NCBI GenBank assembly: GCA_022426155.1 | Contig: JAKMEE010000028.1 | Coordinates: forward strand, 55,442-119,441 | Origin: Poseidonia sp. | Lineage (GTDB): Archaea > Thermoplasmatota > Poseidoniia > Poseidoniales > Poseidoniaceae | DNA: 64,000 bases | Reading direction: 5' to 3' | Shown here: positions 6,112 through 64,000 of the stretch, piece by piece | How positions within the stretch are numbered: the stretch's first letter is position 1 | Layout: each line of letters opens with the position of its first letter | Notes under the pieces: generated by a model | The model's input: only the letters and a program-made list of their open reading frames with translations | Told to the model about the DNA's origin: nothing | Database searches by the model: none | Program-made: the position numbers and the translations under genes

Positions 6112-9100
6112 ACTTGCTCATTGAATCCGTGGTTTTGGTGCTCGTCATAGCACTCTTGAGCACGGTGGCTACCTTGAGTTTGGGTCGTTTAGATTCAACA
6201 GGACTTTGGGTCAAAACACTCCTGATTCTCGGTCCTATCGTGGATGGCTGGCTTGGAATGGTATTCCTTCTGTGGCTTGGTCTCGGTCCCATCAACGCAG
6301 TTTTGGGAGGCGTCTTACTTGGCATTGCATCCCTGACATTCTTGCAACCGCTCTTAGTCCCTCGTCGCCTTGTTGTTTGGCGCCTTGCCATGGAAAATAT
6401 TCGACGAAGAAAACGTCAGTCTGCATTGATGATTGCAGGCCTTGTGATTGCTTCTGCTATCATCACATCTTCTTTGGTGGTTGGAGATTCATTGGACGCT
6501 ACGGTGACGCATGAGGTTGAAGCATCTTGGGGGAGCACGGATTTATTGATTGCAGGGTTCAATCCCCAAACTGGTGTTGCGGTTGAATTCGAAGAAAACG
6601 TGGGCGCACGGATTTGGGGCGCATTGCAGAATGATTCGTCGACTTCGCCTCACATTGAGGGACGTCAACATGGTCTGGCAACCTCGGTGAGTCTGACGAA
6701 CTCAGAGGGCAGAGGTGAGCCAACTGTGTCATGGTTTGCCCGAAACTCCACCATTGACGCAGAACAAATCTGGGAGCCCTTGGGCGATGATGGACTACGC
6801 TTTGAGACCATTCGAATGGCGAATGAAGGTGCCCAAATACCTCAAATTGTCCTCAACCAAGCCGCCGGTGATGCAATGAAAGTGGATGTGGGTGATGTGA
6901 TTAAAATGGGGTGGTACATCTCTGGGGAGGGCGGTCAGCGCGTTCATCAGGAAACGAATGTTTCGGTCCTCGAAATCGTTGCGAATACAGGTCAAGGAGC
7001 CATGGCAGGTAGCGTCACTCCAGCGGTGTTTACGGATCTCAGAACTGCACAAGAATTGATGAAAGCACCAGGGGCCATGAACCGCCTCTCTCTTGCATTA
7101 AAATCTGGCATGAGTGATGCGGATGTGCGTACTTTTGGAGAAACAGTTGAAGAATTCGTCAATCAAAGTCTTCTTGCTTCTGATGTTGGATTCAATTTGA
7201 CATTTGCAGAATCAACTGGAACGGCCACTCTTTCCAACAGCGCAGGTCTTGGACGTATTTCTGGTGAAGATGTTCTTTCCCTTCGAGAAAACATGACCTC
7301 CTTTGCAGGAAATGTCTCAATGATGGAAGTGTTACAGGTGCCGCTAATCGATGTATCGTTTGATAATCAATCGCTTCTCACTCTGGCAGATTCCGATGTT
7401 CACACCCTGGCCTACAGCGGCTCGGCCCTATGGCACATCGGTCTTTCAGGGGCTGGATTTGAGCCAAGTGATGCTGATGATTCATGGGTTTGGAGAGCCG
7501 ATGATGGTGAGCGAATCAACGATGCAGCATTTTCTCCCAATGGGACACAGGCTCTCCTGGCACATGATGGTGGCATTGAGCTAGCCGCAGAATGGGCAAG
7601 CGATTCAACATCCTATGCCTCATGGAAGACAGACAACTCAGCAGTTGCAGCCGTTTGGGCCGATGGAGAATGGTTCGTCTTGGAGGCCAATTCAAGCAAT
7701 GCAAAATTGCATCGTTTTGATGCGAACCTCAACCCTCAAGGAATGGAACCCCTAACTCTTGAACTGCCCAGCACAGTTTTGTCCTACGATCTGTCGGTTG
7801 ACATCGGGTTGCACCTTCGTGTTGAAGGTTTGCTAAGCACATCATATTACGCCACTGAATCCCTGAATTTGTTTGAATTCTTACCAAGCGAAGCCGTGGA
7901 TTGGCCTTCAACCGAACCAGGTTCAGATATTGACCTCCATCCAAGATGCGACAATACTGCATCTGTATCCCTTTCTTCAACATTGCATTGGTGCACATTT
8001 GAACATGGTTTAATGCAATGGAATTCAACCACAAACAATGCTACTGGGATACGTCTTCCGATTATCTCTGAGGCCCCGGGCTTTGGTCAGTTTCCTCAAA
8101 TGTTCCTCGCTTTTGGTGGAAGTGATGGAACTCAAAACCTTGAGCCAGGGCATGTGCTGCTTTCCTCTCGACTTGACACCTTGGCGCTGGATGACCTGAG
8201 CATGGAATTGGCTGTACAAGGAGCGCTCCCGTATGCTTACGGAAACGATACTGCCGTGTTCTTCACCAACGATGGAGCCTATGCCTCTCTCCCTGGTTTT
8301 GAAGACCTTTCAGCACTCGAATCGGTTGTCTTAGGATTGATATCTCTCCAAGATGCAGAAATATTGGCACTGGCAGGGGATGATGAACGATCCTTGTTGT
8401 TGCTTTCTGGGGGGGATTTCACCAATTCAAGTCTACAAGACAAGGCCTTCGAGGCAACATCTTTGTGGCTTGATGACCGAAGTACACTGGACGACCTTCA
8501 TTTGCTTGTACAACCCGTCAAAGTGGATGCTGCTGAGCAAGCCGAAGCATCAGCTGGCGTTCTATCTGCCATGTTCCTTGTGTTCGGCACCTTCACGATG
8601 GCCGCTGGCGTTTTACTGGTGCTCACAATCATCACACTCTTGGCCGATGTGAGGCGTTCAGAATTGGCTACAGCGCGGGCATTGGGACTGAGGATCAGCG
8701 ATGCACGAGCATTTTTCATCCAAGAGGGGACCGTCCTATCTCTCATGGCGGGGGGGCTTGGCTCCTTGGTCGGTCTCGGTCTCGCTTGGCTGATCTCCAT
8801 CGGTTTCAGTACGATTTTCTCATCGGTTGGCGCTCAGTCCTTCCGATTTGATTGGACCCTAGATTCATTCCTTGCTGGTTGGATTTGGGGGTCATTAATC
8901 GCCCTCTTTTTGCTATGGGTTGCAGCGCTATGGAATAGCAACCTCAACATCGTCAAAGCCCTCAGAGGTGCTCGTACTTCACTTCGAAAAGGCGTTCCAT
9001 GGGGTCTGTATTTACTTCAAATTCTGGCCCTCGGAGGTGCAGTTCTCTCGTACACTTCCCTGTTCCTTCTGGGTACATCGAGTAGTTTGGCTTACCTTGC

Positions 9101-48430: not shown

Positions 48431-48560
48431 TGGTGCCGGGAGCGGGGCTCGAACCCGCGACCTTCGGATGTCTCAGACACCGCAAGGGGCTTGCACGTCA
48501 TACGATCGCCTTGGAGGCTGCCCTATGAGTCCGACGCGCTACCAACTACGCCACCCCGGC
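48431..48560 (-). tRNA. tRNA-Met (CAT) with 54-nt intron at 37/38 (48470..48523); CCA encoded
   Basis: Acceptor GCCGGGG/CCCGGC, anticodon stem TCGGA/TCCGA, BHB motif with CTCA/TGAG helix and bulges TA|G and AC|A, T arm GCGGG-TTCGAGC-CCCGC. Confidence 0.93.
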
Positions 48561-50912: not shown

Positions 50913-53900
50913 ATGAGTCCCATGCGTAATCAACCGTCAAACCAACGTGGCATCACTGTCCTGCTTCTTGTGATGATGTTCATCTTTGCCGACATGGCCC
51001 TGCCTCAGACCCTTGAAGGTTGGACCCTATTGGAAGACGAACAAGAGCCTAGTCGAACGGTTTCGACACACAGTGTATTGGCCGACACATACATCACCGT
51101 CGCCGACCCAACTGGGACCTACAACGGTTCCACCACAGGGTCGCTTAATGACGACTTGATCAGCGAGTCAAAACTCCTGTTCCGCTTCCCGATGAACTTC
51201 ACCTCTTCCGATACCATCCACAGCGCCACGCTGGACCTCAACTGCACCACGGACGCTGAAATTGGAAGCACGGAAATGATTGCTTATGCTGCAGAGATGA
51301 AGCGAACGTGGAACGGTTCCTATGCCTCGTGGATGATCTATGCCAGTTCTCTTTCATGGGATGTCGCAGGTGCAGATGGCGATGCTGACCGTGGAATCTG
51401 GGAGCCTCCAGTCCGCCTTAGTTCGAATGGAACTCTCTCTCTGAATGTAACTGCCATCGCACAAGATGCTGCACTTAGCAATCAAGCGCATGTCTCCATC
51501 ATTGTAACTTCACTTGGAGCCGCCTACGATTGTTCCATGTCAGAAGCTACCAATGCGGCCTCCCGTCCGTCACTCCTCATCGACAGTTCAGCAACTGCGG
51601 CGGGCTCTGGCCAAACCGTGCAAACGGATTTACCGATTGCAGAAGGGGCGCCTTGGATGGAATCAGCCTTCCTCTTGGCCCCAGTCACAACCCCTGACAT
51701 CAGCTATGCCAACAACACAGGTGCCGAAGTTGAAATTCAATTGAGTCATTCGGATGACTTCCGTTCAATGAGCGATGACCTCTGGCATTTCTCCACCCTA
51801 TGGAATACCTTTGGCTCCACTGGAACAAGTGGACATTACACCATTCCCTCGTCGTTGGCTTTGACCAATGGGAGTGATATGTACATGCGAGTCCGCTCAT
51901 TGGATTCATCTGGGCAGATTGGTACATGGGACAACACCCATTTCCTTCTCCCTAGCCTTGATGTCACCGATAACGGCGACGGTACCGCTACGATGACCTT
52001 AGAGCCAACAGATCTCGGCCTTGCCTCAAATTTCTTCCAAGATGCAACCGTGAGTGAAACATCCAAGACCACCAAGTACGGTGGTGAAGCTACCTTTGAA
52101 GCCAGTATGACTTCGAGCAAAGAACGCATTTCTCATCTCCGTGCATCGCTCAACCAATTGGGCCTCCATGATAATCTCACTATCGTTGACGCTTCCTTGA
52201 ATCTCACTCGCTTTGGCCATACGGGAGATCCCGTTGTATCTTTGCATGGCATGGACGATTCTGGTTTGTGGGTTGAAGATGATATCACATGGAATCAAAT
52301 GTCAACCAACGGAATCCAATGGTACGACGGTGGCCGTGGTAACGGAACTGCAGCATTTGGGTTGGCAGATGGAAACCGCAGCCTTGACCTCTTCTCGTTC
52401 GACATCACGCATCCTGTTCAGAATTATTTGGATGGCGGCGACGATGATCCACTCGACATGCTTCTTGCAGTCCGTGGAAAATACGAATCTCACACCAACG
52501 GTGAAGGAATCGTGTTCCATGCTGCTGAAGGGAACGGTGACCTTCCGGTCTTTTCACTCACCTATGAATGGGGAAGTGGTGTTACACCAAACGCGGTGAG
52601 CCTTACCGCACCCACCGATGGCCTCGCTATTTGGAATCAGACCGGTCACAACCTCTCCGGCAATACCCAACCTTCACTCAACTGGAGTCTTCCAAGCAGT
52701 GGGGATGATATCGTCTTCGAAATGGCGACCGATGAAGACTTCAGATTGCGAACCATGCGTGTGGACACTCGAATCGACAATGACTTCTCACCCGTCGATG
52801 GAACTCTCGCTATGACTGGAGCTAAGACACTCGACCTTGGTAACATGTATTTCTGGCGCATGGCAACTGTGGACGCTGACGGACACTATGGGACATGGGT
52901 CAGTTCAAGTTTCTTGATCTCAAATTTAGAAAGTGAGTGGTTGGGCGGAGACCGATATGAATTCAGAATGAAGCATGGGAACGGCACAGACGACAACCAA
53001 TATCCAGAATGCATGGATACTTACATCGATAGTGGAGATACAAACGGAAATTACAATGGTGACGAAGAAATGGCCATTGATTACAACACCTTGCCTTCAG
53101 AAACCACGGTTTTACTTGGTTGCAATCTGGTTTCAAACCTCTTGCCAAGCGGATATGCAGTAGAGTCTGCTCAACTTCATATGACATTGACCTCCTCAAC
53201 ATTCGGGAACCCAACCATTGCGGTGTGGGAGAATTTGCAGAATAACTGGTCGGACGGAGATGCCACATGGGCAAGTTACGATGGGGACAACTCCTGGGCT
53301 ACAGGAGGTGCAAAAGGAGCGGAACGGGGCTCATTGCTGGACAGTGAGAGCATTGGTAGTTCTTACAGCGAAGGAGATGTTGTGGAATGGAACGTGACAT
53401 TGGCTGTCCAAAATGCCATGCGGGAAGACCGACGTGTTGACTTCATTGCTGGTATGTTGGCTATTGGTTCAGGTTCTTCGAGAACGGCCTACTTCAGTTC
53501 TGCAGAAGGGAGCATGAGCGATCGTCCTGAGTTGACATTTGTATACGTTCCTGGTTCTGATGCAGTTCCTTCCAACCCAACCCTCAATCTGCCTTTGAAT
53601 GGCTCGTGGTCCATTGGGACTGGGGTCGACATGACACCAATTGCTCAACCTGAATTGGATTGGAGCTTCAGCGGAACCATGACCATTGGTGGCTATTTAC
53701 TCCAACTTGACACACAATCTGATTTCAGTTCAGTCGCGTCAATGACCTACGCCTCATGGAATGACCCCGGTTTCGATTTGACAAATTTCAGTTTCACTCC
53801 AAGTTCGGACCTTGATGACGGAAATACATGGTATTGGCGTGTCCGAGCAGTCTCGGCAACCAACCAAATTGGAAATTGGTCCTCCACCTATCATTTCCAT

Positions 53901-56900
53901 CTCCCCAACTTGACCACTCATGTTGTTGATGCTACAAAAGCATCAGTCGAATTGCATCATCGAGAGGCTCTCCCTCACATGAACCTCCCCAATTTCATTG
54001 ATACGTACGTGATGGAAGGTGGTCAAGGGGCATCATCAACCAATGAAAATTCAACTGGGCTTTTGGTTGGAGAAACCAGCAGTGGTCACCAATCTGCTGC
54101 TCTGATTAAACTCCCCTTGAGCGAAATCCCACAGCCTGCAAATGCCCGTGTGACGCAAGCAGAAATCAACCTCTTCGCCGAGTATGGGTCAGCCGTAGGT
54201 GAACCCGTAGCTGTTCGCCAAGTCTTGCAAAATTGGACCACTTCTGCCAACAATACTACCTATGACGGCGTCAACAATTGGTCGTTGCCAGGTGGTCGAA
54301 ATATCGGTGTTGACATCGGCGGATATGTCGATTTAGTTTCAAGCGTGGATGATTCATGGATGACATTTGACATCACCGAAGCAGTTCAAGCAGCTATCGC
54401 TAACGGTGAAACCCATGTTTCCCTAATGATTTACACCTCCTCTGAGACTACGGACGATATCGTGTTCACCTCGACTGAAGGTTCTTCCACAGAACATCCT
54501 TGGATGAATCTCACTTGGGAAGATGGAGCAGGAACGACTCCGACACTTGCCGCGACGAACATTGGGCCTGTTTCAAACAGCATTGTATGGGATTCAACTT
54601 CCCACGCCTTACTGGCCGATGACCAACCCACATTCTCTTGGACCTACGGTTCAACAACAGCCGCTGATCACTGGCGGGTGTTTATTCTCGCAGACGCAAA
54701 TAATGACATGGCGGGATTGTACACCTACGATTCTCGAACGAATGGTTCAGCCTTTGACATTACCAACATGACCTTCACACCACCCGCACCGCTGGTCTAC
54801 TCACGTGAGATTCGTTGGATGGTGCAAGCTGTGAATGATGGAATGCTAGGTCCACGAAGTAATTCCACCCATTTCCACCTACCATCAACCGTCGCCACAG
54901 AAATCAACAGTACAGATGCAACCCTTTCAGTTCAGGAAGGAGCGATTGTCCCGGTTCTGAATTATCCAACTTCAACACAGGATACATTCCTTGACAGTGG
55001 CAATACGCAAAGCAATGAGGGAAATGGTTACTCATTGTATGTTGGTCGAAGCGCTACCGCATACAACAATGTGAACCTTCGTAGTTCATCCTTGATCTCT
55101 GTTGATTTCTCCATGCTCCCAATGCCCGCTACCTATGAAGTCGTTGATGCAACATTGGAACTTGATGTTCTCAACCGTAATGGACAAGTCTTGATGTCGG
55201 TATCCGACATGGTCTCGAGTTGGACTGAATCATCCACATGGGCCTATCCAGCGGGTAACAACTCCTCTTGGTCAGGTACTGGTGCTTATCATACCTCAGA
55301 CTCGAACGCTCCATTCAATCCAGGTTTTTGGGTGAACAGTTCTGATACTGTTGCAGCTAACGTGACTGCTCTAGTTCAACACGCACTTGCCAATGGCCAA
55401 AGTGGAATTGATGTGATTCTGCAAGCCGAAGAGTACAACGGGGCTGTTAACGGCCGAATTGAATTTGCGAGCAGCGAATATCCATTGTTGGACTTGCGCC
55501 CTCGATTGAACATGACTTATCGCTTGATTACACCGCATGTTCCCAGTGCCTCAACAGGTTTACTTCCTGCGGATGGGGCTACCCTTTGGGACACTTCACA
55601 ACCTCGTCCATCTGGCCAAGATATGAGCGAGTTCACATGGTCAGCAACAGTGAACAACGAAACACGATGGATTGCTTGTGCAGCCGACGATGAGCGAATG
55701 ACTCAGGAGGTGGAATGTTATGACCTCAATGCTATCATGGACGGTGCAGAAACAAACATCACTTACGACCCGGTCAATATGACCATCTCAGTAAGCAATA
55801 TGAGCAAGGGTGATTCCTGGGTTTACTGGAGAGTACGAGCTGATCAAGATCATCGAATCGGGGAATGGTCAGCCGTCCATTCTTACCGAAACCCAAGTAA
55901 TTACGGGTCCGATGATGGAAATGGAAACCACACATTGGAACTCTACCGAGAATCGATCTTCAGCGTAACGGGTTCCATCCCATCAGTTCCTGATGTTGAA
56001 ATTGATTCATCAACGAGCGTGAACACTGGTTCATCCGCAAGTCTTGATCTTGGACAATCCTCTGGAGGAAGTGGAGAAAGTCGTATTTTGATGGAATTTG
56101 ATTTGACCAACCTTCCATGGCCAGCTGCGATGACACCCACCTCAATGGTGTTGCAAATGTACCGCACAAGCCTCCAAGGTACATCCTCGACCACCGTATC
56201 AGCACATGCTTGCAGTTCCTTCAACGAAGGAAGCACGATTTGGGCTACAGCACCAAGTTGTTCCACTACTGAAATTACTCGAACGACTCTGACTCTCTTG
56301 CCTCCCGATGGATGGATGGAATGGGATTTGACCAGCCTTGCTCAAGATAACATTGCCAACGGAAACACAACGATGACCATCATGCTGCAGCGTGTTGGAA
56401 CTTCTTCGACCACACACTCCTTCCATTCCTCAGATGTAACCAATGAATCGCTTCGCCCTAGAATTGTATTGGATTACGTTGACAACGTTGCCGGCATTAT
56501 CCCTCCTGCACAACCCTCCCTCATCACACCAACTGATGGGGAAGTTCTGTACGAAGAACTGAGCGGCCTCTTAGTGCCTGAACTCCAACCACTTTTGTCA
56601 TGGAATCCTGTGACGGGAGCCACTGGATACATCGTTTCGATTGCCAATGAGTCTGGAGTGACAAAATACAGATCATGGGAGGATTCTGAAATCACGAACA
56701 CGACCTTCCGTTTCTCGGATAACCTCTCTCAGAGCGATGTTTACTCCTGGTGGGTCCAAGGTGTCAACCAATCAATTCCAGGGCCATCATCGGCCCGATG
56801 GAGTTTCGCTGTAGGTTCCCCAAATCATGTATTCAACAGTGATTTGACCTATACTTACACCTTCCAAACAGGAAATGAAATCGTTCAATACGGCCATACG

Positions 56901-59900
56901 AACATCCAAGATACTGCTATTTATTCCGAATACGGTGCTCAAAATTACGTGGATGACGATGTCATGTCGGTCGGAGAATTCTGCGGTACACTATGGACCG
57001 ATGAATGTCGTGCGACACTGGGACTTGATGCAAGTCAGGTGCCATTTGCACCATACCAACAAGTCCATTCAGCCTCTCTCGGCCTCTTCATCGAAGATTG
57101 GGTCTCAGTTGGTCAAGCGACCTCAATGACCTTCTCAATCCACGAAGTGACCTCTTCTGCATGGAGTCAAACATCGGTGACTTGGAACGGAACAACTTCG
57201 GGTTCACAATGGGGCGCACCTGGAATGCAGGCTGGCGTGGATTATGCTGCCACACCACTGTCACAAGTTGTTCTCAACGTTGATACGACGGGATGGGTTT
57301 GGTTTGATATCAGCACTGAAGGGATGACGTTGTCAAGTTCAACCAAGTGGATTATCTTGGGAACATCCAATGTCGGACACGCACATGCTTCGTTCTACAC
57401 GAGTGAAGCCGGTGACCAAAATTACCGTCCACAAATTCTCTTCAACACGACAAACGTTAGCACCATCGATCTCTCGCCCAGTGGAACTCCTACCACGGAT
57501 GCAGACACCAATGTGCTCTTCCAATACGCTGCTTACGACCATTTGTCCATGGTTCAATCACCGCCAGTTGTCTGGAAGGCAAGTGCAGGTTCAATTGGTA
57601 GCAATGGCTTGTTTACGCCAAGTATGTCTGGTACCATAACGATCAGTGCTTGTTTCGGATTGGTCTGTGGCTCGCAAAACATTACAGTAACTCCTGGTGC
57701 TCCCACTGATTTGATTGTGAGTCCACTCACTGCAACGATCACTGCTGACCAGACCCTTCTCATTACAGCGAACATGGTTGACCAACATGGAAACATCGTT
57801 CCAGGCCAACCTCTGACATTCACTCCAAGCAACGGTTCAATGAGCGCTACAATGCCCAATGAATTCTTACCTCATGCAGCTGGAAGTCATACGATCCGTG
57901 TGACGCATGCTATCACGGGAGGAAGTTTCGTTGATGTTGGTGTCACGGTTCTGACTGGCACTCCTGATTATTTCGAATTGACTGGTTGTTCAGGAACCGT
58001 ACCCGCAGGTGAATGGTGTGATATCACAACGAAATTATTCGACCAATTTGGCAATGAACTGAACCTGAGTGAAGCAGGGAATCTGACATGGACCACAACC
58101 AATGGCAATTATTCTGAAATCAATCAACAATACTTCCCCGACCATGTGGGGCAGTGGTGGTTGAATCTTACCTCAGTGTACGGGGTCAGCTCAGAATTAC
58201 TGATCACAGTTGGCCATGGAGAAATGGCCATGCTTGAATTGAATGTTTCTTCGACCGAGATCACAGCAGACGAACGAGTCTATGTGAACACAACACGTGT
58301 TGACGTTCGTGGTAACCGAATAGCAGTTGTTCTACCCGCAGAAAACTGGACCAAGATCGCAGACGGACAACTTACGCCAGGTGCTCCAGCGATTTGGGAC
58401 CCAATTTCCCGAGGGGCCAAAACCCTTGAGGCTCGGTATGAATCAACACTTGCCCAGGTGATTATTACTGTCTCTGAAGGCGAAATTCAAGCATTGATTT
58501 TGATCGTTGACAACGAAGACGCTGCATTGTCGAATTCACAATTTGACCTCACTGCAGATGAGAGTCTCGAAGTGAAGGTCAAGGCAATTGACGCCAAAGG
58601 AAACCGTTGGGTTGTGGTTGCAGATTGGACCCTCGACCACCCAACAATGGGTGACTCGTCATCGTTCTTGGAAAAGGTCGTTGGCGATTCCACGGTGTTC
58701 ATGCCGTACCTCGCCAGCGAAGATGAATATGTCTTGACAGCGACCTATGATGATGGAACAATCATTCATCAGGTCTCTTTGGAGTCATTGATTAGTCACG
58801 GTTTCTTGCACACTGTCTCCATCTCGGGTGTCGTGAACAATCCTCTATCCACAAATGGTGCAAGTTTCGACATGACCTCAGATTATGCTGTTGATTTCAG
58901 TGCCGAACTATCCGATATGGATGGCAATCGAATCGATGTAAGCCAACTCACATGGTTGCTCATCGAAGATGAATCGGGCGTAGCTACGGACATTACCACC
59001 GACTTGCTGATGAGTGGTATGCGTTGGGAAGCAGGCTCAATTGGAGAATATAGCATTCAAGCCTACAGTATCAGTGGAACGGGATACAATATCACTGACA
59101 GTATCGCCATCACTGTTTATCATGGAATTGCAGTAAGCGTGAATTCCAATCTCATCGCAGGGTCATCTTCAACGACACCCGTTGCGGGCGACTTGATTGA
59201 GATTTACATCAACGGTACAGATGCAGATGGGAACATCTTCGCACAAAATGTGCAATGGGCCGAAAACGGAAGTGAAGTTACTACACTCACAGCGGTTGAA
59301 GCCACCGACGGAGCCTATGTCTACGCTGCAGAAATTGCTGGTATCCACACCCTCTTCTTTGAAGCAGGTGATGCATCCTCGAGCCTGGAATTGAATATTT
59401 CAGCCCAGAGTATCGTCAATCGTTTGGAAGTGAATCTTTCTGCAACAGGGGTTGAACAACTTGGCACCGTCCAAATATCCATCCGAGCATTCGATGTGTT
59501 CAACAATGAAATCCCTGTACCTTCAAGCATTCAAGTTGATGCTACTGGCCGTGCAAGTGTGACCATGCAAACTTCAGATTCATGGACCATCACAACACTC
59601 GAAGATGGAGCTCAAACGATCACCGTCAATGTGGGAGCCGTCCGTGTAGATTCAGACATTGAAGTGACGGGTACATTGGCAGGATTCTTTGAATCAGGCG
59701 GAACATTGTATTACGTTGGGGCAGGATTACTGGCCCTCGTTGGGTTGGTATTGGTTGGCTTGCTCGTTAATTTCATGCGCTCTGGAAGCGATGATTGGGA
59801 CGACGAATATGAGGAAAAATACGAAGATGAATCAGTAGGAGTTTCCTCAGGTCCTGCAGCAGGCCCAAGTGGTCCCGCACCAGGTCAATCAGGTCCTGCT

Positions 59901-60143
59901 TCCGGTCCGAGTGGTCCTGCGCCAGGTCCATCAGGTCCTGCTTCCGGTCCGAGTGGCCCTGCGCCAGGTCCATCAGGGCCCGCTCCTGTTTCAGAACCAG
60001 AACCTGTTGAGGAGCCTTCTGCCATTGAAGACGATGAAAGTTATCGTGTTGATGATGAAGGCACTGAATGGTGGGAAGATGATGAAGGAACTTGGTGGTA
60101 CCGAGTTCAAGGCGCCGAAGAGTGGGATGAATGGACTGAATGA
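50913..60143 (+). CDS. Giant surface protein (3076 aa) with seven DNRLRE-like modules, Ig-like stalk, TM anchor and cytoplasmic tail
   Basis: Repeated D[TA]YI...F/L-D-L..P...A.L.L...W...[TA][TS]W...W..FDIT..VQ...F.S.E...RP.L modules; many N-x-S/T sequons; TM near 59700..59775. Confidence 0.88.
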   Translation: MSPMRNQPSNQRGITVLLLVMMFIFADMALPQTLEGWTLLEDEQEPSRTVSTHSVLADTYITVADPTGTYNGSTTGSLNDDLISESKLLFRFPMNFTSSDTIHSATLDLNCTTDAEIGSTEMIAYAAEMKRTWNGSYASWMIYASSLSWDVAGADGDADRGIWEPPVRLSSNGTLSLNVTAIAQDAALSNQAHVSIIVTSLGAAYDCSMSEATNAASRPSLLIDSSATAAGSGQTVQTDLPIAEGAPWMESAFLLAPVTTPDISYANNTGAEVEIQLSHSDDFRSMSDDLWHFSTLWNTFGSTGTSGHYTIPSSLALTNGSDMYMRVRSLDSSGQIGTWDNTHFLLPSLDVTDNGDGTATMTLEPTDLGLASNFFQDATVSETSKTTKYGGEATFEASMTSSKERISHLRASLNQLGLHDNLTIVDASLNLTRFGHTGDPVVSLHGMDDSGLWVEDDITWNQMSTNGIQWYDGGRGNGTAAFGLADGNRSLDLFSFDITHPVQNYLDGGDDDPLDMLLAVRGKYESHTNGEGIVFHAAEGNGDLPVFSLTYEWGSGVTPNAVSLTAPTDGLAIWNQTGHNLSGNTQPSLNWSLPSSGDDIVFEMATDEDFRLRTMRVDTRIDNDFSPVDGTLAMTGAKTLDLGNMYFWRMATVDADGHYGTWVSSSFLISNLESEWLGGDRYEFRMKHGNGTDDNQYPECMDTYIDSGDTNGNYNGDEEMAIDYNTLPSETTVLLGCNLVSNLLPSGYAVESAQLHMTLTSSTFGNPTIAVWENLQNNWSDGDATWASYDGDNSWATGGAKGAERGSLLDSESIGSSYSEGDVVEWNVTLAVQNAMREDRRVDFIAGMLAIGSGSSRTAYFSSAEGSMSDRPELTFVYVPGSDAVPSNPTLNLPLNGSWSIGTGVDMTPIAQPELDWSFSGTMTIGGYLLQLDTQSDFSSVASMTYASWNDPGFDLTNFSFTPSSDLDDGNTWYWRVRAVSATNQIGNWSSTYHFHLPNLTTHVVDATKASVELHHREALPHMNLPNFIDTYVMEGGQGASSTNENSTGLLVGETSSGHQSAALIKLPLSEIPQPANARVTQAEINLFAEYGSAVGEPVAVRQVLQNWTTSANNTTYDGVNNWSLPGGRNIGVDIGGYVDLVSSVDDSWMTFDITEAVQAAIANGETHVSLMIYTSSETTDDIVFTSTEGSSTEHPWMNLTWEDGAGTTPTLAATNIGPVSNSIVWDSTSHALLADDQPTFSWTYGSTTAADHWRVFILADANNDMAGLYTYDSRTNGSAFDITNMTFTPPAPLVYSREIRWMVQAVNDGMLGPRSNSTHFHLPSTVATEINSTDATLSVQEGAIVPVLNYPTSTQDTFLDSGNTQSNEGNGYSLYVGRSATAYNNVNLRSSSLISVDFSMLPMPATYEVVDATLELDVLNRNGQVLMSVSDMVSSWTESSTWAYPAGNNSSWSGTGAYHTSDSNAPFNPGFWVNSSDTVAANVTALVQHALANGQSGIDVILQAEEYNGAVNGRIEFASSEYPLLDLRPRLNMTYRLITPHVPSASTGLLPADGATLWDTSQPRPSGQDMSEFTWSATVNNETRWIACAADDERMTQEVECYDLNAIMDGAETNITYDPVNMTISVSNMSKGDSWVYWRVRADQDHRIGEWSAVHSYRNPSNYGSDDGNGNHTLELYRESIFSVTGSIPSVPDVEIDSSTSVNTGSSASLDLGQSSGGSGESRILMEFDLTNLPWPAAMTPTSMVLQMYRTSLQGTSSTTVSAHACSSFNEGSTIWATAPSCSTTEITRTTLTLLPPDGWMEWDLTSLAQDNIANGNTTMTIMLQRVGTSSTTHSFHSSDVTNESLRPRIVLDYVDNVAGIIPPAQPSLITPTDGEVLYEELSGLLVPELQPLLSWNPVTGATGYIVSIANESGVTKYRSWEDSEITNTTFRFSDNLSQSDVYSWWVQGVNQSIPGPSSARWSFAVGSPNHVFNSDLTYTYTFQTGNEIVQYGHTNIQDTAIYSEYGAQNYVDDDVMSVGEFCGTLWTDECRATLGLDASQVPFAPYQQVHSASLGLFIEDWVSVGQATSMTFSIHEVTSSAWSQTSVTWNGTTSGSQWGAPGMQAGVDYAATPLSQVVLNVDTTGWVWFDISTEGMTLSSSTKWIILGTSNVGHAHASFYTSEAGDQNYRPQILFNTTNVSTIDLSPSGTPTTDADTNVLFQYAAYDHLSMVQSPPVVWKASAGSIGSNGLFTPSMSGTITISACFGLVCGSQNITVTPGAPTDLIVSPLTATITADQTLLITANMVDQHGNIVPGQPLTFTPSNGSMSATMPNEFLPHAAGSHTIRVTHAITGGSFVDVGVTVLTGTPDYFELTGCSGTVPAGEWCDITTKLFDQFGNELNLSEAGNLTWTTTNGNYSEINQQYFPDHVGQWWLNLTSVYGVSSELLITVGHGEMAMLELNVSSTEITADERVYVNTTRVDVRGNRIAVVLPAENWTKIADGQLTPGAPAIWDPISRGAKTLEARYESTLAQVIITVSEGEIQALILIVDNEDAALSNSQFDLTADESLEVKVKAIDAKGNRWVVVADWTLDHPTMGDSSSFLEKVVGDSTVFMPYLASEDEYVLTATYDDGTIIHQVSLESLISHGFLHTVSISGVVNNPLSTNGASFDMTSDYAVDFSAELSDMDGNRIDVSQLTWLLIEDESGVATDITTDLLMSGMRWEAGSIGEYSIQAYSISGTGYNITDSIAITVYHGIAVSVNSNLIAGSSSTTPVAGDLIEIYINGTDADGNIFAQNVQWAENGSEVTTLTAVEATDGAYVYAAEIAGIHTLFFEAGDASSSLELNISAQSIVNRLEVNLSATGVEQLGTVQISIRAFDVFNNEIPVPSSIQVDATGRASVTMQTSDSWTITTLEDGAQTITVNVGAVRVDSDIEVTGTLAGFFESGGTLYYVGAGLLALVGLVLVGLLVNFMRSGSDDWDDEYEEKYEDESVGVSSGPAAGPSGPAPGQSGPASGPSGPAPGPSGPASGPSGPAPGPSGPAPVSEPEPVEEPSAIEDDESYRVDDEGTEWWEDDEGTWWYRVQGAEEWDEWTE
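59850..59987 (+). repeat. 21-nt (7-aa) tandem repeat encoding GPA[A/P/S]G[P/Q]S, about 6.5 units
   Basis: GPAAGPS GPAPGQS GPASGPS GPAPGPS GPASGPS GPAPGPS GPAP, with a near-identical 42-nt higher-order unit. Confidence 0.95.
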
Positions 60144-62761
60144 AGATTGAGGTGTTTGACTTGCTGCAACATCGTCGAATCTTCACCTTCGTTGCTATCA
60201 TCTCATTGTTATGTGTCTCGTGGCCAGCATCATTTGAACTCAATGATGCCTCCACCCCGTCATTCGCAGGGCCGGCCGACAGAATTGTCATTGACTCACC
60301 GCCAGCTGAATTGACAGCAGATGAAGTGGTTCAATTTGAAGCCATCATTTACGATGCAGTGAACAATGTCGTTACCGGTCAAGTGAATTGGACGGTGAGC
60401 AATGGTAGCATTTCTTCTAACGGTTTATTTTTCCCATGGGCGTCTGGAAGCGTTGAAATCATTGCAGAACACAATGGCCTGAATGGACATTACAACCTCA
60501 CAGTGACTCCGGGAGCTGCGACTTCTATTGAGATATCGACCACTCATTTCATGGTTAAAGAAACAACCTCGTTACAGGCAGATCTACTCGATGCTCGTGG
60601 AAACCGAGAGGCCGGGGGCGAAGGGATGGTATGGGACCTCAATGGTTTGTATTTCGGACATGGTATGCCAGAGTGGACGCCTGAAAAGTTAGGTGATATG
60701 GACCTTCGAGTCCGCTTTAATCAGCTTGAAGACAACGCTGAAGTGACCGTCGTCTCAGGAGACCCTCATACCTTTAGTTTTCTCGATAGGATTCAGGTTC
60801 GTGCAGGGGCAACGGTTCGCATTGTTCCAGACCTCATTGATATCAACGGCTACTCAATGCCATTGTCAACCATTCCATCGATCGCTTGGTATGCAGAGAA
60901 TGGAACATTCAATGCAGCTGGCGATTATACAGCGACCAATACTGGCCGATGGAACATTAGTGCAACCTACGGGAATATCACGGGTGAAGGAATCATCGAA
61001 GTGATTCCTGGTGATGCTGTGGCGTCTGAATTGATTTTCGTCAATTCTCCAACAGAATTCGTTGCAGGTGAGCAATACGAACTCGCAGTTGAACGCAGAG
61101 ATGCCAACGGTTACATTGGGACGGTATCCCTACCTCTAAGTGCTTGGACCGTGAATTCAGGGGGCCTGTCTACTGACGATAATCGCGTGTATTGGAACCC
61201 CTCTGGTGTTGGCCCAGCGACTCTTTCTGTCATGGACAACGATGTGTATTCTGAACGTTCAGTTGAGGTCTTGCATGGTACTCCAATGGACCTTGAAATT
61301 ATGATGAACCCCGCTCTTCCTTCTGCAGGTGACCAAGTTGCCCTCATTCTCCAAGCCGTTGATGTCATGGGGAATACTTGGATTGTCAACGGCTCCATTG
61401 AAATGAATATGGGGAATGAAACTGAAATCATGGACCAGACACCTTACCTACTCATTCAAGCACAACTTGCCCAATCATGGCGTTTTGAGGCCAGTTGGTA
61501 CGATGAAGTGACAGCTATCATGTTTGTCGCAGACCATTCATTTGATGTTCATCCAGGACCCCTTGCTTTCATCACCATGGATGGAGAGGGTGAGATCGTT
61601 CCAGCAGACGGAGATCTCAATCTCAATCCACAATTTTTTGATGCATACGGTAATCAACTTCCTGAACTCGTTCTAAATTGGACCATCGATGGGAATGACA
61701 TCACCTTGGATATGTTGCTCAATGATGGACGTTGGGTGGCTACCTCTCTAGGTGGGCATGAAATCCGCGTGAATGCTGATGGGGTGTTCGCAACCGTTCG
61801 TTTGACGGTGGTTGCAGGAGATGCCCATGGGCTTGTGACGGATGTCGAGGAAGGGTTCACTGTTGTGGCTGGAGTTCCAACCGATATGTTTGTTCAAGTG
61901 GTTGATATTCATGGGAACTTAGCTGAGGCAACCCAAATTTCAACCACAATCAATGGCTCCGTGGCCATGCTAGAAGCATCGCCTACTGGCTTGGGTTACT
62001 GGCAAATGATTGGAAAGCAAGCCGGAGACCACGAACTTGTGATGGTCCAAGATGAAGCGATCCATTCCGTCTCGTTGAAGGTTGTCCCGGGCAAACCAAT
62101 TCGAATTCAATCAAATCTCAATCAAGATTTTGTTTCACAAGGAGATGTTGTCCTTTTGCAAGCCTATGGCATTGATGCGTATGGAAACTCGGTCCCTATC
62201 GATGAAACGAATGCCAGTGTAACTTGCACAGCAGGAACAGCCACATTCGTCACCAATGGAATCTGGGAAATAGATGTGACAAATGATGGAACTGACCGAG
62301 CATGCACATTGGTATGGGACGGACTTTTAGCGCAAAATTTCTTTGATGTTGAATCGGTATTGCTCGGAGGAGCTGTTGGTTCGACAAATACTGCCATGGT
62401 GATGGGGATTATTCTCCTCAGCCTGATCCTTGCCGTATTGGTTGTACTCACTAAGAAAGCCAACGAAGAAGGAAATGAATGGATTGAAGATGCATTTGAT
62501 GAGGATGAATATGATTCTAATGGTGGGGATGAGGACGATGATATTCCCGATGATGATGAAAGCGAATTAAGCCGTCATGGATTGACGGATGCTGGTCTCA
62601 AAGAATTGGCTGCTGAGGCCACAAGAGTTGGTGTCATGCAAGCAACCCCATCAACTAAGCAAGGTCAAACAGGATGGTATGTTGATGTCTCTGAAGAATT
62701 ACAATACTGGGAAGTAACTCCAGCAGGGGAATGGATTCGCCATGAATCCGAAGAAGCTTGA
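60140..62761 (+). CDS. Membrane-anchored Ig-like repeat surface protein (873 aa), paralog of the upstream stalk
   Basis: Signal peptide, repeated YDxxxN/DxxGN Ig-like units, C-terminal TM, acidic and Trp-rich tail. ATGA overlap with the upstream gene. Confidence 0.85.
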   Translation: MKIEVFDLLQHRRIFTFVAIISLLCVSWPASFELNDASTPSFAGPADRIVIDSPPAELTADEVVQFEAIIYDAVNNVVTGQVNWTVSNGSISSNGLFFPWASGSVEIIAEHNGLNGHYNLTVTPGAATSIEISTTHFMVKETTSLQADLLDARGNREAGGEGMVWDLNGLYFGHGMPEWTPEKLGDMDLRVRFNQLEDNAEVTVVSGDPHTFSFLDRIQVRAGATVRIVPDLIDINGYSMPLSTIPSIAWYAENGTFNAAGDYTATNTGRWNISATYGNITGEGIIEVIPGDAVASELIFVNSPTEFVAGEQYELAVERRDANGYIGTVSLPLSAWTVNSGGLSTDDNRVYWNPSGVGPATLSVMDNDVYSERSVEVLHGTPMDLEIMMNPALPSAGDQVALILQAVDVMGNTWIVNGSIEMNMGNETEIMDQTPYLLIQAQLAQSWRFEASWYDEVTAIMFVADHSFDVHPGPLAFITMDGEGEIVPADGDLNLNPQFFDAYGNQLPELVLNWTIDGNDITLDMLLNDGRWVATSLGGHEIRVNADGVFATVRLTVVAGDAHGLVTDVEEGFTVVAGVPTDMFVQVVDIHGNLAEATQISTTINGSVAMLEASPTGLGYWQMIGKQAGDHELVMVQDEAIHSVSLKVVPGKPIRIQSNLNQDFVSQGDVVLLQAYGIDAYGNSVPIDETNASVTCTAGTATFVTNGIWEIDVTNDGTDRACTLVWDGLLAQNFFDVESVLLGGAVGSTNTAMVMGIILLSLILAVLVVLTKKANEEGNEWIEDAFDEDEYDSNGGDEDDDIPDDDESELSRHGLTDAGLKELAAEATRVGVMQATPSTKQGQTGWYVDVSEELQYWEVTPAGEWIRHESEEA

Positions 62762-62829: not shown

Positions 62830-63999
62830 TCATTCATCGCTGTGATCTTCAAAGAGTTGGAAGAATTCATCAATGTCGATCACTCCGTTGGCGTCAATAT
62901 CTGCATTGTGGAATATCATGCGTGATTCATCGCTCGTGTATTCAAAGCCAAGAGAGGAGAGTGCATGCTGGAATTCTCGAAGTGTGAGATGGTTCTTCCC
63001 ACCTAAGTCTGCTGCATGGAACACTGCGACTCTCACCTGTTGTTCGTTGGGTGTACCACTCTTGAATTGCTGTCGGAATGATTGAACGGGTGTTGTTTGA
63101 ATCGTCGCATGTTTCTTTCCATAGAGGTAATAGGTGGCTGAACCAGCAAGAATGGCTGCTCCTCCACCAATCAAGGCTTTCTCTCCAATGAAGTACATCA
63201 GGACGGCTCCTGCAACGATGCCCCAAATTTGGATATAGGGGTACATGGGTCCCTTGTAACTTGGATTCCAATCGTACTCTTTACTGGTCTGCCTCAATAT
63301 GATAACACAAGAATTAATCATCATAAAAATCATGATTTTGAAACCTGATGCCAGTTTGACCACGTCCTTCAGGGGGGCCTCCATAATCGCAATACCCATG
63401 ACAATTCCAGTCAGAATAATCGGCCAATGGGGGGTTTCATAGCGGACATTGACCTCTTCCAGAGCTTGCGGCAAGAGGTTATCTTGAGACATAGCAAACA
63501 GGAAACGAGATGAGGCCAGAATTCCAGCTAACGCCATGGAGATCATAATCAGCACAGACAAGATAGCCGCAAAAATACCAAATTCAGTACCTGCAACTTT
63601 TTCTGCGAAAACAAAGATGGGGTTCTCAACGACTTTGCCATCCTGTATCCACCATTCTCCTGGAATGGCTGCCATCATCAGATAGGCGATGGCTGTGTAA
63701 AGTACGGTGGCGATGAGTAATGAAAGCATGATTCCTGCTGGAAGGTTCTTTTCAGGATCTTTGACTTCTCCACCAATTGCTGCAACTTTGGTGACACCTG
63801 CATAGGCAACAAAAACGAAGGCAGCTGCCTCAGCCAGTGTCCAAATATCTGTGGAAAATGCCGCATCAACGGGTCGCTGAGCATCAAATCCGTCCACAAA
63901 GAATGCTGCAACACAGATGAACAGCAAAAGAGCGACAGTGGCAATGACGATCGGGGTTTGGATTGCCTTTACTTTGGAGACACCGAGTATGTTGACAAC
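62830..63999 (-). CDS. APC family amino acid permease with C-terminal EF-hand pair (5' part outside window)
   Basis: Frame open to the window edge. FVFVAYAGVTKVAAIGGEVKDPEKNLP, SSRFLFAMSQD, TPHWPI; EF loops DLGGKNHLTLRE and DIDANGVIDIDE. Confidence 0.9.
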   Translation of the reverse strand, partial: VVNILGVSKVKAIQTPIVIATVALLLFICVAAFFVDGFDAQRPVDAAFSTDIWTLAEAAAFVFVAYAGVTKVAAIGGEVKDPEKNLPAGIMLSLLIATVLYTAIAYLMMAAIPGEWWIQDGKVVENPIFVFAEKVAGTEFGIFAAILSVLIMISMALAGILASSRFLFAMSQDNLLPQALEEVNVRYETPHWPIILTGIVMGIAIMEAPLKDVVKLASGFKIMIFMMINSCVIILRQTSKEYDWNPSYKGPMYPYIQIWGIVAGAVLMYFIGEKALIGGGAAILAGSATYYLYGKKHATIQTTPVQSFRQQFKSGTPNEQQVRVAVFHAADLGGKNHLTLREFQHALSSLGFEYTSDESRMIFHNADIDANGVIDIDEFFQLFEDHSDE

Positions 64000-64000
64000 G

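What the first reader, a model, noticed from the sequence alone, without database searches (positions are those of the whole stretch)
62830..63030. Amino acid permease carrying a calmodulin-like EF-hand pair
Seen: after the last TM, helix-DLGGKNHLTLRE-helix (62974..63009, degenerate loop) and helix-DIDANGVIDIDE-helix (62866..62901, canonical D-x-D-x-N-G-x-I-D-x-x-E) with EF-hand pair spacing. Established: APC permeases commonly carry regulatory C-terminal domains, but paired EF-hands are mostly eukaryotic and uncommon in archaea. Inference: Ca2+-regulated solute uptake in a marine archaeon.
Basis: partly seen in the sequence, partly recalled or inferred. Interest (0 to 1): 0.65.

Follow-up and report, generated by a model that had tools for sequence, protein, structure and literature searches.

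The report
Archaeal amino-acid permease with EF-hand tail
A marine Group II archaeon (Poseidoniaceae) encodes a 12-helix amino-acid-type transporter ending in a small calmodulin-like calcium-binding module on the inside of the cell; the fusion is kept across the whole order, so calcium may tune nutrient uptake, but nobody has tested this.

Summary
The minus-strand gene ending at 62830 is cut by the window end; the full protein is 541 aa. It encodes an APC-superfamily permease. Its closest solved relative is GkApcT (5OQT/6F34). After TM12 come a short conserved helix and an EF-hand pair that passes Pfam's curated cut-off.

- **Loops:** Loop 2 (DIDANGVIDIDE) is canonical. Loop 1 (DLGGKNHLTLRE) lacks two side-chain ligands but is itself strongly conserved.
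- **Topology:** The helix count, charge bias and homology all place the tail in the cytoplasm.
- **Distribution:** The fusion is found across both major families of Poseidoniales and is under purifying selection. It was lost at least five times within Poseidoniaceae.
- **Outgroups:** Thermoplasmatota homologues carry Usp or PTS-EIIA2 domains in the same C-terminal position. The EF pair therefore sits where related permeases carry regulatory domains.
- **Genome context:** EF-hands are not rare here. This genome has at least 8 loci over the Pfam cut-off, including one inserted in a NuoL-like subunit.

My best reading is a built-in, single-site Ca2+ sensor that modulates transport. This is inferred, not shown.

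I found no paper describing this fusion. An earlier report of this scan described the same architecture in another genome.

The parts
62830..64000 (-). 3' part of the permease-EF-hand gene: residues 153-541 plus the stop codon. The gene continues beyond the window end; the full gene is contig C40:118271-119896, 541 aa.
   Evidence: Open reading frames; translation; position in the genome.
63097..64000 (-). APC/LeuT-fold transmembrane core, residues 153-453 (about TM4 to TM12).
   Evidence: Pfam AA_permease_2 E 1.5e-26. GkApcT aligns to query 19-453. AF2 model with Foldseek TM-score 0.85 to 6f34.
63052..63096 (-). Juxtamembrane linker with a conserved amphipathic helix (residues 454-468; T455, P456, F460 and F464 are invariant or nearly so).
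   Evidence: Invariant columns. AF2 helix 456-465. The helix is retained in several tail-less variants.
62953..63051 (-). EF-hand 1 (helix 469-482, loop 483-494, helix 492-501). It is non-canonical: G at loop position 3 and K at position 5.
   Evidence: AF2 secondary structure. Loop statistics over 65 distinct loop pairs: D1 65/65, G3 54/65, K5 53/65, N6 55/65, H7 58/65, E12 59/65.
62974..63009 (-). EF-hand 1 loop, DLGGKNHLTLRE. It fails the PROSITE-type EF-loop pattern at position 3.
   Evidence: Sequence. Pattern read by eye against the regular expression used.
62848..62934 (-). EF-hand 2 (helix 508-518, loop 519-530, helix 528-536). It is canonical.
   Evidence: Pfam EF-hand_1 and EF-hand_6 hits on residues 512-536 of the full protein (360-384 of the window fragment). 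AF2 secondary structure.
62866..62901 (-). EF-hand 2 loop, DIDANGVIDIDE, with every canonical Ca2+-ligand position filled.
   Evidence: The only EF-loop pattern match in the window. Conservation over 65 distinct loop pairs: D1 65/65, D/N3 59/65, N/D5 61/65, G6 65/65, I/L/V8 65/65, D/N/E9 62/65, E12 59/65.
62833..62847 (-). Short acidic C-terminal end, DHSDE. Its length and sequence vary among orthologues.
   Evidence: Alignment.

Best explanation
The gene encodes a 12-TM APC-superfamily amino-acid (or amine) permease of a Poseidoniaceae archaeon. Its cytoplasmic C-terminus carries a calmodulin-lobe-like EF-hand pair.

Shown:
- The fold, the domain order and the loop chemistry.
- Order-wide conservation under purifying selection.
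- Related permeases outside the order carry other cytoplasmic regulatory domains (Usp, PTS-EIIA2) in the same position.

Inferred:
- EF-hand 2 binds one Ca2+ ion.
- EF-hand 1 is a non-binding partner that stabilises the pair, as the 'hidden' EF-hand does in STIM1.
- Ca2+-dependent opening of the pair changes how the tail contacts the conserved juxtamembrane helix (residues 456-465) or the cytoplasmic face of the transporter.
- Through this, a rise in cytosolic Ca2+ switches transport up or down. A possible precedent is the self-sequestered EF-hand domain of the mitochondrial ATP-Mg/Pi carrier.

The substrate and the sign of regulation are unknown.
For: - **Permease core:** Pfam AA_permease_2 and AA_permease hits. 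GkApcT aligns at E 1.3e-32 over query residues 19-453. The AF2 model has pLDDT 82.4 and matches 6f34 with TM-score 0.85 on the target length.
- **EF pair:** EF-hand_7 scores 38.5 bits against a cut-off of 30. The tail matches the calmodulin C-lobe at E 1e-10. AF2 gives helix-loop(beta)-helix twice, with pLDDT 76-89 in the full-length model. Foldseek on the tail alone returns only calmodulin or centrin lobes and the SCaMC regulatory domain 4zcu.
- **Cytoplasmic side:** There are 12 hydrophobic segments, with K/R enriched in the N-terminus and the even-numbered loops, and KKH directly after TM12. The protein is homologous to 12-TM GkApcT. Outgroup homologues place Usp or PTS_EIIA_2, both cytoplasmic domains, at the same point.
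- **Conservation:** 112 of 121 genomes of the order have the permease, and in most the match runs to residue 533-541, in families f1, f2 and f3. Loop-2 ligand positions are 90-100% canonical over 65 distinct sequences. Tail pN is 0.21-0.51 while synonymous sites are saturated.
- **Low resting Ca2+ is plausible:** The genome has two CaCA-type Ca2+/cation exchanger genes.
- **Lineage context:** EF-hand modules are fused to many membrane proteins in this genome and this order. Poseidoniales-specific Ca-binding modules are noted in PMC9258230.
Against:
- The tail was lost at least 5 times within Poseidoniaceae, leaving no coding remnant. Transport therefore does not need it, and its benefit is conditional.
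- Loop 1 cannot bind Ca2+ canonically, so any sensor has one site and no cooperativity.
- A few Thalassarchaeaceae-type orthologues have Q or G at loop-2 position 12, or H at position 9, which would weaken binding.
- No interdomain confidence (PAE) or coordinates were available, so the docking of the tail onto the core is unsupported.
- The N-terminal extension shows no simple co-variation with presence of the tail.
Confidence: 0.5

Rival explanations
1. The EF-hand pair is a Ca2+-independent (or permanently Ca2+-loaded) structural or protein-interaction module. It might mediate dimerisation or docking to a partner protein, without acting as a switch.
For: - Loop 1 is degenerate, yet its own sequence (G3, G4, K5, N6, H7, L8, T9) is highly conserved. 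This suggests a role other than ion ligation.
- His480 and His516 are invariant in 'FH..D' ahead of both loops.
- Repeated loss of the tail shows it is dispensable.
- Many EF-hand-like pairs in eukaryotes act as Ca2+-insensitive interaction modules (background knowledge; Pfam even has a family 'Ca2+ insensitive EF hand', PF08726, seen).
Against: Every canonical ligand position of loop 2 is kept at 90-100% across proteins that are only about 45-55% identical overall. A pure scaffold would not be expected to keep them.
Confidence: 0.27
2. The tail senses another signal, such as Mg2+, another divalent metal, or pH through the conserved histidines, and not Ca2+ transients.
For: - H480, H489 and H516 are invariant or nearly invariant.
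- Other EF-hand insertions in this lineage are flanked by His-rich runs.
- Canonical EF loops also bind Mg2+ at cytosolic concentrations (background knowledge).
Against: Glu at loop position 12 with the D-x-D/N-x-N/D-G framework is the classic Ca2+-selective geometry (background knowledge). There is no direct evidence for any other ligand.
Confidence: 0.13
3. The tail is extracellular and binds seawater Ca2+ (about 10 mM) as a permanent structural ion.
For: Seawater is Ca2+-rich. Several secreted proteins of this genome carry EF-like or dockerin-like loops, for example the 1218-aa protein on C10.
Against: - There are twelve TM segments with N-in/C-in charge bias and KKH after TM12.
- The core is homologous to 12-TM GkApcT.
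- Outgroup homologues place the cytoplasmic Usp and PTS_EIIA_2 domains at the same point.
Confidence: 0.05
4. The fusion is an assembly or gene-calling artefact, or the motif is a chance match.
For: None found.
Against: - It is one uninterrupted frame.
- The same architecture appears in more than 100 independent genomes and about 1700 database proteins.
- The Pfam score is above the curated cut-off.
Confidence: 0.01

Closest known systems
GkApcT (Geobacillus kaustophilus CAT/SLC7 homologue; PDB 5OQT, 6F34)
   Same: It has the same 12-TM APC/LeuT fold. phmmer gives E 1.3e-32 over residues 19-453. Foldseek gives TM-score 0.84-0.85 on the target length.
   Different: Identity is only about 24-25%. 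GkApcT ends shortly after TM12 and has no EF-hand tail. The substrate of the archaeal protein is unknown.
Thermoplasmatota APC permeases with C-terminal Usp or PTS-EIIA2 domains (loci L051, L052, L055, L057)
   Same: They are the nearest homologues outside the order, at 33-40% identity over residues 19-450. Each has a cytoplasmic accessory domain fused directly after TM12.
   Different: The accessory domain is Usp or PTS_EIIA_2, not an EF-hand pair, so the input signal differs.
Mitochondrial Ca2+-regulated carriers (ATP-Mg/Pi carrier SCaMC/SLC25A24; aspartate/glutamate carriers Aralar and citrin)
   Same: A secondary transporter is fused to EF-hand domains that impose Ca2+ control on transport. 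The SCaMC regulatory domain (4zcu) appears among the structural matches of the tail.
   Different: The transporter fold is unrelated (mitochondrial carrier family). The regulatory domain is N-terminal with four to eight EF-hands. They are eukaryotic. This is an analogy, not homology of the whole protein.
Calmodulin C-lobe and single-site EF-hand pairs such as STIM1 (canonical plus 'hidden' EF-hand)
   Same: The tail aligns to calmodulin residues 79-146 at E about 1e-10. Like STIM1 (background knowledge), it pairs one canonical loop with one non-binding loop.
   Different: It has one lobe, not two, and is covalently tethered to a transporter. Loop 1 has G and K at ligand positions 3 and 5.
GadC C-plug and other C-terminal autoinhibitory tails of APC transporters
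   Same: A cytoplasmic C-terminal extension of an APC transporter that can gate the inward-facing pathway (background knowledge).
   Different: The GadC plug is an unstructured, pH-sensitive peptide, not a folded EF-hand domain. No sequence similarity was detected: the best GadC-family hit covers the core only (TIGR03813, E 4e-6).

Membership tests
APC superfamily amino acid permease (Pfam PF13520 / PF00324) | Profile match above the curated cut-off | tested here: met
   On the window fragment, PF13520 scores 93.7 bits (cut-off 27) and PF00324 scores 78.9 bits (cut-off 24.6).
APC superfamily amino acid permease (Pfam PF13520 / PF00324) | 12-TM LeuT-type fold | tested here: met
   The AF2 model has pLDDT 82.4. 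The top Foldseek hits are all APC transporters; 6f34 has TM-score 0.85 on the target length. Hydropathy shows 12 segments.
APC superfamily amino acid permease (Pfam PF13520 / PF00324) | Transports amino acids or amines | not testable with these tools
   Only family-level annotation is available: JGI 'APA family basic amino acid/polyamine antiporter' and NCBI 'amino acid permease'.
TC 2.A.3.6-type 'amino acid transporter' subfamily (NCBIfam TIGR00909) and BcaP equivalog (NF053761) | Score above NCBI's curated cut-off | tested here: not met
   TIGR00909 scores 194.9 bits against a cut-off of 556.8. NF053761 scores 174.9 bits against 690. These are the nearest families, but the protein is not a member at the curated level.
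Eukaryote-type cationic amino acid transporters (CAT, SLC7A1-4) | 14 TM helices with the AA_permease_C (PF13906) C-terminal pair | tested here: not met
   There are only 12 TM helices. PF13906 scores 20.2 bits, below the cut-off of 27.
EF-hand domain pair (Pfam PF13499) | Profile match above the curated cut-off | tested here: met
   38.5 bits against a cut-off of 30, E 1.5e-9. The whole-genome scan gives 42.5 bits.
EF-hand domain pair (Pfam PF13499) | Two helix-loop-helix units joined by a short antiparallel beta bridge between the loops | tested here: met
   AF2 gives H469-482, E489-491, H492-501, H508-518, E525-527, H528-536.
EF-hand domain pair (Pfam PF13499) | Canonical 12-residue loop (ligands at positions 1, 3, 5, 9 and 12; Gly at 6; hydrophobic at 8) | tested here: met
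   Met for loop 2, which matches the PROSITE-type pattern. Loop 1 fails at positions 3 (G) and 5 (K).
EF-hand domain pair (Pfam PF13499) | Binds Ca2+ | not testable with these tools
   Needs ITC, 45Ca overlay or Tb3+ assays on residues 455-541.
Calmodulin / calmodulin-like sensors | Stand-alone protein with four EF-hands in two lobes | tested here: not met
   It is a single lobe of about 70 residues fused to a permease. It resembles the calmodulin C-lobe but is not a calmodulin.

The most novel reading that the evidence does not exclude
Poseidoniales, among the most abundant planktonic archaea, may use cytosolic Ca2+ as a true second messenger. The signal would be read directly by one-site EF-hand switches built into a nutrient permease and, in parallel, into a NuoL-like respiratory subunit and other membrane proteins. 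This permease would then be the first Ca2+-gated APC transporter and the first Ca2+-regulated secondary transporter described in Archaea.
Probability: 0.3. Interest if true: 0.8.

Novelty: new variant of a known kind. Interest (0 to 1): 0.55.

Why it matters
Ca2+ signalling is considered mainly a eukaryotic trait, and evidence for Ca2+ as a second messenger in archaea is almost absent. Here a defined transporter with a solved-structure relative carries a small, separable EF-hand module. The module is conserved across an entire order of very abundant ocean archaea and has natural tail-less variants that can serve as controls.

That makes the question directly testable, even though the organisms are uncultured. 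The tail can be expressed alone to measure binding, and the permease can be expressed with and without it to measure transport.

The study also shows that the C-terminus of this APC subfamily accepts interchangeable regulatory domains: Usp, PTS-EIIA2 or an EF-hand pair. If Ca2+ control is confirmed, it would link amino-acid uptake by major marine heterotrophs to an ionic signal.

Tried and rejected
- **HMMER search of 1.84 billion representatives with the 82-aa tail.** The top 150 hits were dominated by long multi-EF-hand proteins whose summed scores outrank single pairs. Only one full-length permease representative (P0243) and some fragments appeared. A Pfam scan of ten size-matched hits found no other permease fusion. 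The search therefore could not show whether APC+EF-hand exists outside Poseidoniales.
- **Word-indexed search restricted to the tail.** It returned only the same family.
- **Origin of the module.** phmmer of the tail against the other EF-hand proteins of this genome gave only weak matches (17 bits at most), weaker than to calmodulin (43-45 bits). Recent domain shuffling within the genome is not supported, and the origin stays open.
- **dN/dS.** Synonymous sites are saturated in nearly all pairs, so I report only pN and identity.
- **N-terminal partner helix.** I checked whether an N-terminal extension co-varies with the tail as a possible partner helix. No clear pattern emerged.
- **Tail-only AF2 without an alignment.** It gave only pLDDT 64.6, and its Foldseek E-values are weak at 3e-3 or worse. 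I use it only as supporting evidence.
- **Operon link to the LigB/RidA genes.** I considered that the upstream LigB/RidA genes define the substrate through an operon. In the other family, opposite-strand genes lie between them and the permease, so I treat this as conserved synteny only.

Full report

The minus-strand frame ending at 62830 reads ...VAVFHAADLGGKNHLTLREFQHALSSLGFEYTSDESRMIFHNADIDANGVIDIDEFFQLFEDHSDE*.

The window cuts the gene. In the assembly, the window is contig C40:55442-119441. The complete gene is C40:118271-119896, encoding 541 aa (P0001).

Several results show the motif is not a chance match:
- On the window fragment, Pfam gives AA_permease_2 (E 1.5e-26), AA_permease (E 4.3e-22) and EF-hand_7 (38.5 bits against a cut-off of 30, E 1.5e-9). 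EF-hand_6 and EF-hand_1 are also above their cut-offs.
- Against PDB sequences, residues 19-453 match the bacterial CAT homologue GkApcT (5OQT/6F34, E about 1e-32). Residues 467-535 match the calmodulin C-lobe (residues 79-146, E about 1e-10).
- A PROSITE-type EF-loop pattern occurs once in all six frames of the window, and that match is loop 2. It occurs 40 times in the genome, against 3-6 in residue-shuffled controls.

**2. Anatomy**

Hydropathy gives 12 hydrophobic segments. Lys and Arg are concentrated in the N-terminus, in the loops TM4-5 and TM10-11, and in 'KKH' directly after TM12. This indicates N-in/C-in topology.

AlphaFold2 with a 39-sequence family alignment gave mean pLDDT 82.4 and pTM 0.80. 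After TM12, which ends near residue 449, the model has:
- a short helix at 456-465;
- helix 469-482, strand 489-491 and helix 492-501 (EF-hand 1);
- helix 508-518, strand 525-527 and helix 528-536 (EF-hand 2).

This is the textbook EF-hand pair. pLDDT is 76-89 over residues 460-530.

Foldseek placed the whole model with APC transporters. The top hits were 6f34 and 5oqt, with TM-score 0.84-0.85 on the target length. The tail modelled alone had low confidence (pLDDT 64.6). It matched only calmodulin or centrin lobes and the Ca2+-bound regulatory domain of the mitochondrial ATP-Mg/Pi carrier, 4zcu.

NCBIfam puts the core nearest TIGR00909 (a TC 2.A.3.6-type family) and BcaP, but far below their curated cut-offs. 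The protein belongs to the APC superfamily without belonging to a named equivalog. The substrate is unknown.

**3. Loop chemistry across the family**

I compared 65 distinct loop pairs from database proteins and genome loci.

| Position | Loop 2 | Loop 1 |
|---|---|---|
| 1 | D 65/65 | D 65/65 |
| 3 | D/N 59/65 | G 54/65 |
| 4 | variable | G 45/65 |
| 5 | N/D 61/65 | K 53/65 |
| 6 | G 65/65 | N 55/65 |
| 7 | mostly V | H 58/65 |
| 8 | I/L/V 65/65 | L 61/65 |
| 9 | D/N/E 62/65 | T/N 61/65 |
| 12 | E 59/65 (plus D 2) | E 59/65 |

Loop 2 is fully canonical. Loop 1 lacks the side-chain ligands at positions 3 and 5 in nearly all members, yet it is itself strongly conserved.

Other invariant tail residues include R475, F479, H480, F495, L502, R512, F515 and H516.

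The tail is less conserved than the core. Mean pairwise identity is 44% for the tail against 57% for the core. However, pN is 0.21-0.51 in the tail while synonymous sites are saturated, so the tail is under purifying selection.

**4. Distribution**

The 120 best database hits are 72-99% identical, and all carry both PF13520 and PF13499. The names attached to them are 'amino acid permease [Candidatus Poseidoniaceae archaeon]', '[Poseidonia sp.]' and JGI's 'APA family basic amino acid/polyamine antiporter'.

In 121 genomes sampled across the order, 112 have the permease. In most of them the match runs to residue 533-541. This holds in the window's own family (f1) and in the two others (f2, f3), down to about 45% identity.

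Sixteen f1 genomes have a best homologue that stops soon after TM12. Downstream of these genes there is no EF-hand remnant.

A maximum-likelihood tree of the TM core roots the EF-bearing proteins at the base of the order. It needs 7 changes of state, of which at least 5 are forced by well-supported branches. All of them are losses inside f1. The tail was therefore gained once, early, and has been lost repeatedly.

**5. Beyond the order**

In 251 genomes of the phylum, homologues outside the order reach only 25-40% identity. They align only to residues of about 19-450. The sister lineage in the same class has no homologue at all.

Their reading frames are nevertheless 620-830 aa long. Pfam shows Usp domains (L051 and L052, the nearest outgroup) or PTS_EIIA_2 domains (L055, L057) directly after TM12. 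The C-terminus of this permease subfamily is thus a position that holds different cytoplasmic regulatory domains in different lineages. The EF-hand pair is the Poseidoniales version. This is independent support both for a cytoplasmic location and for a regulatory role.

**6. Lineage context**

The genome has at least 8 loci over the PF13499 cut-off. They include:
- a stand-alone EF-hand pair of about 95 aa;
- a membrane protein with zinc ribbons and three EF-hand pairs;
- a NuoL-like subunit with an EF-hand pair inserted mid-protein;
- two other polytopic membrane proteins with EF-hand pairs;
- a single EF loop at the C-terminus of gyrase A.

Across the order, 59 of 61 genomes have PF13499 matches. 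Poseidoniaceae genomes mostly have 6-10 each (range 3-10), while only 1 of 14 control genomes has any.

Méheust et al. 2022 (PMC9258230) briefly note Poseidoniales-specific gene modules with calcium-binding domains.

The genome also has two CaCA-type exchanger genes. This is compatible with Ca2+ being kept low in the cytoplasm against 10 mM in seawater, although such genes are near-universal.

**7. Mechanism**

The shown facts are summarised in sections 1-6. The following steps are inferred:
- EF-hand 2 binds one Ca2+ ion.
- EF-hand 1 is a non-binding structural partner.
- Ca2+-dependent opening of the pair alters its contact with the conserved juxtamembrane helix (TP-F-x-x-F-R-x-x-F, residues 455-464) or with the cytoplasmic gate, and this modulates transport.

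The closest functional precedents are the EF-hand-regulated mitochondrial carriers and the C-terminal plugs of some APC transporters. Both are analogies drawn from background knowledge, not homology.

I give the Ca2+-regulation reading about 0.5. The rivals are:
- a Ca2+-independent interaction module (0.27), favoured by the oddly conserved loop 1, the invariant histidines and the repeated losses;
- another ligand or pH (0.13);
- an outward-facing structural Ca2+ site (0.05), which topology and the outgroup domains argue against;
- an artefact (0.01).

**8. Novelty**

Four full-text searches found no paper describing an APC permease with an EF-hand. Automated Pfam annotation of these proteins already exists in public databases.

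An earlier report of this scan (e1-888283) described the same architecture in another genome and reached the same reading. I re-derived its claims independently here. This report adds the Usp/EIIA2 exchange in outgroup homologues, the loss pattern, the loop statistics and the structural models.

I class the finding as a new variant of known kinds: APC permeases with regulatory tails, and EF-hand-regulated transporters.

**9. Limits**

- No PAE or coordinates were available for the models.
- The global HMMER search with the tail was swamped by multi-EF-hand proteins. The existence of APC+EF-hand fusions in other lineages is therefore not excluded.
- The origin of the module is unresolved. It resembles calmodulin more than it resembles the other EF-hand proteins of its own genome.

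Noticed in passing
Own genome, outside the window: C38:31932-34481(+), C42:21248-23254(+), C23:8471-8800(+), C22:90329-92269(-), C3:9076-10437(-), C2:16026-17534(+), C31:65298-68096(+): EF-hand modules are spread over many unrelated proteins of this 2-Mb genome. One pair is inserted in a NuoL-like membrane subunit between His-rich runs. Others sit in a membrane protein with zinc ribbons and three EF pairs, a stand-alone pair of about 95 aa, and two other polytopic membrane proteins. A single loop, DTDNDGVVTRDE, lies at the very C-terminus of DNA gyrase subunit A.
   Followed up: partly
L002:3004-5321(-) and 7602-9074(-), i.e. contig C40 just beyond the window end; related loci L059, L061, L062, L064, L066: Directly upstream of the permease, on the same strand, lie a LigB-family gene and a LigB::RidA fusion, with an aldehyde dehydrogenase-like ORF (judged from its sequence, not scanned against Pfam) further up. 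This set resembles a 2-aminophenol-type (amnBA-D-C-like) ring-cleavage pathway. The neighbourhood LigB, LigB/RidA, permease, PanB is kept in both major families of the order. In the other family, opposite-strand genes intervene, so an operon or a substrate link is not established.
   Followed up: partly
window 50913-60143(+) and 60140-62761(+): Two very large adjacent surface-type proteins of 3076 and 873 aa. The first has CBM96 and disaggregatase-repeat matches; the second has no Pfam match. Both end with a TM helix followed by an acidic, Trp-rich cytoplasmic tail (...EWWEDDEGTWWYRVQGAEEWDEWTE and ...TGWYVDVSEELQYWEVTPAGEWIRHE). The first also has a GPSGPA-type repeat before that tail. The 873-aa gene converges on the permease gene, with 68 bp between the two stop codons. 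Its adjacency to the permease is kept in several Poseidoniaceae genomes.
   Followed up: no
window 48434-48560(-): A tRNA match that spans 127 bases for a 71-position model, which suggests an intron-containing archaeal tRNA gene.
   Followed up: no
Loci L031-L047 (Poseidoniaceae genomes G076, G030, G046, G054, G112, G034, G040, G066, G118, G014, G106, G096, G120, G010, G084, G068): Natural tail-less versions of the same permease, some 76-77% identical to the EF-bearing form. They end 5-25 residues after TM12 and have no EF-hand remnant downstream. They are ready-made controls for any functional test.
   Followed up: yes
L050 (G115:C20) and relatives G019, G077, G099: Some Thalassarchaeaceae-type orthologues carry an insertion of about 20 residues (GEGPNIPDDAIVVPSSSKTRPD) in the linker between the two EF-hands. 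In these genomes the genome search matches stop at about residue 504.
   Followed up: no
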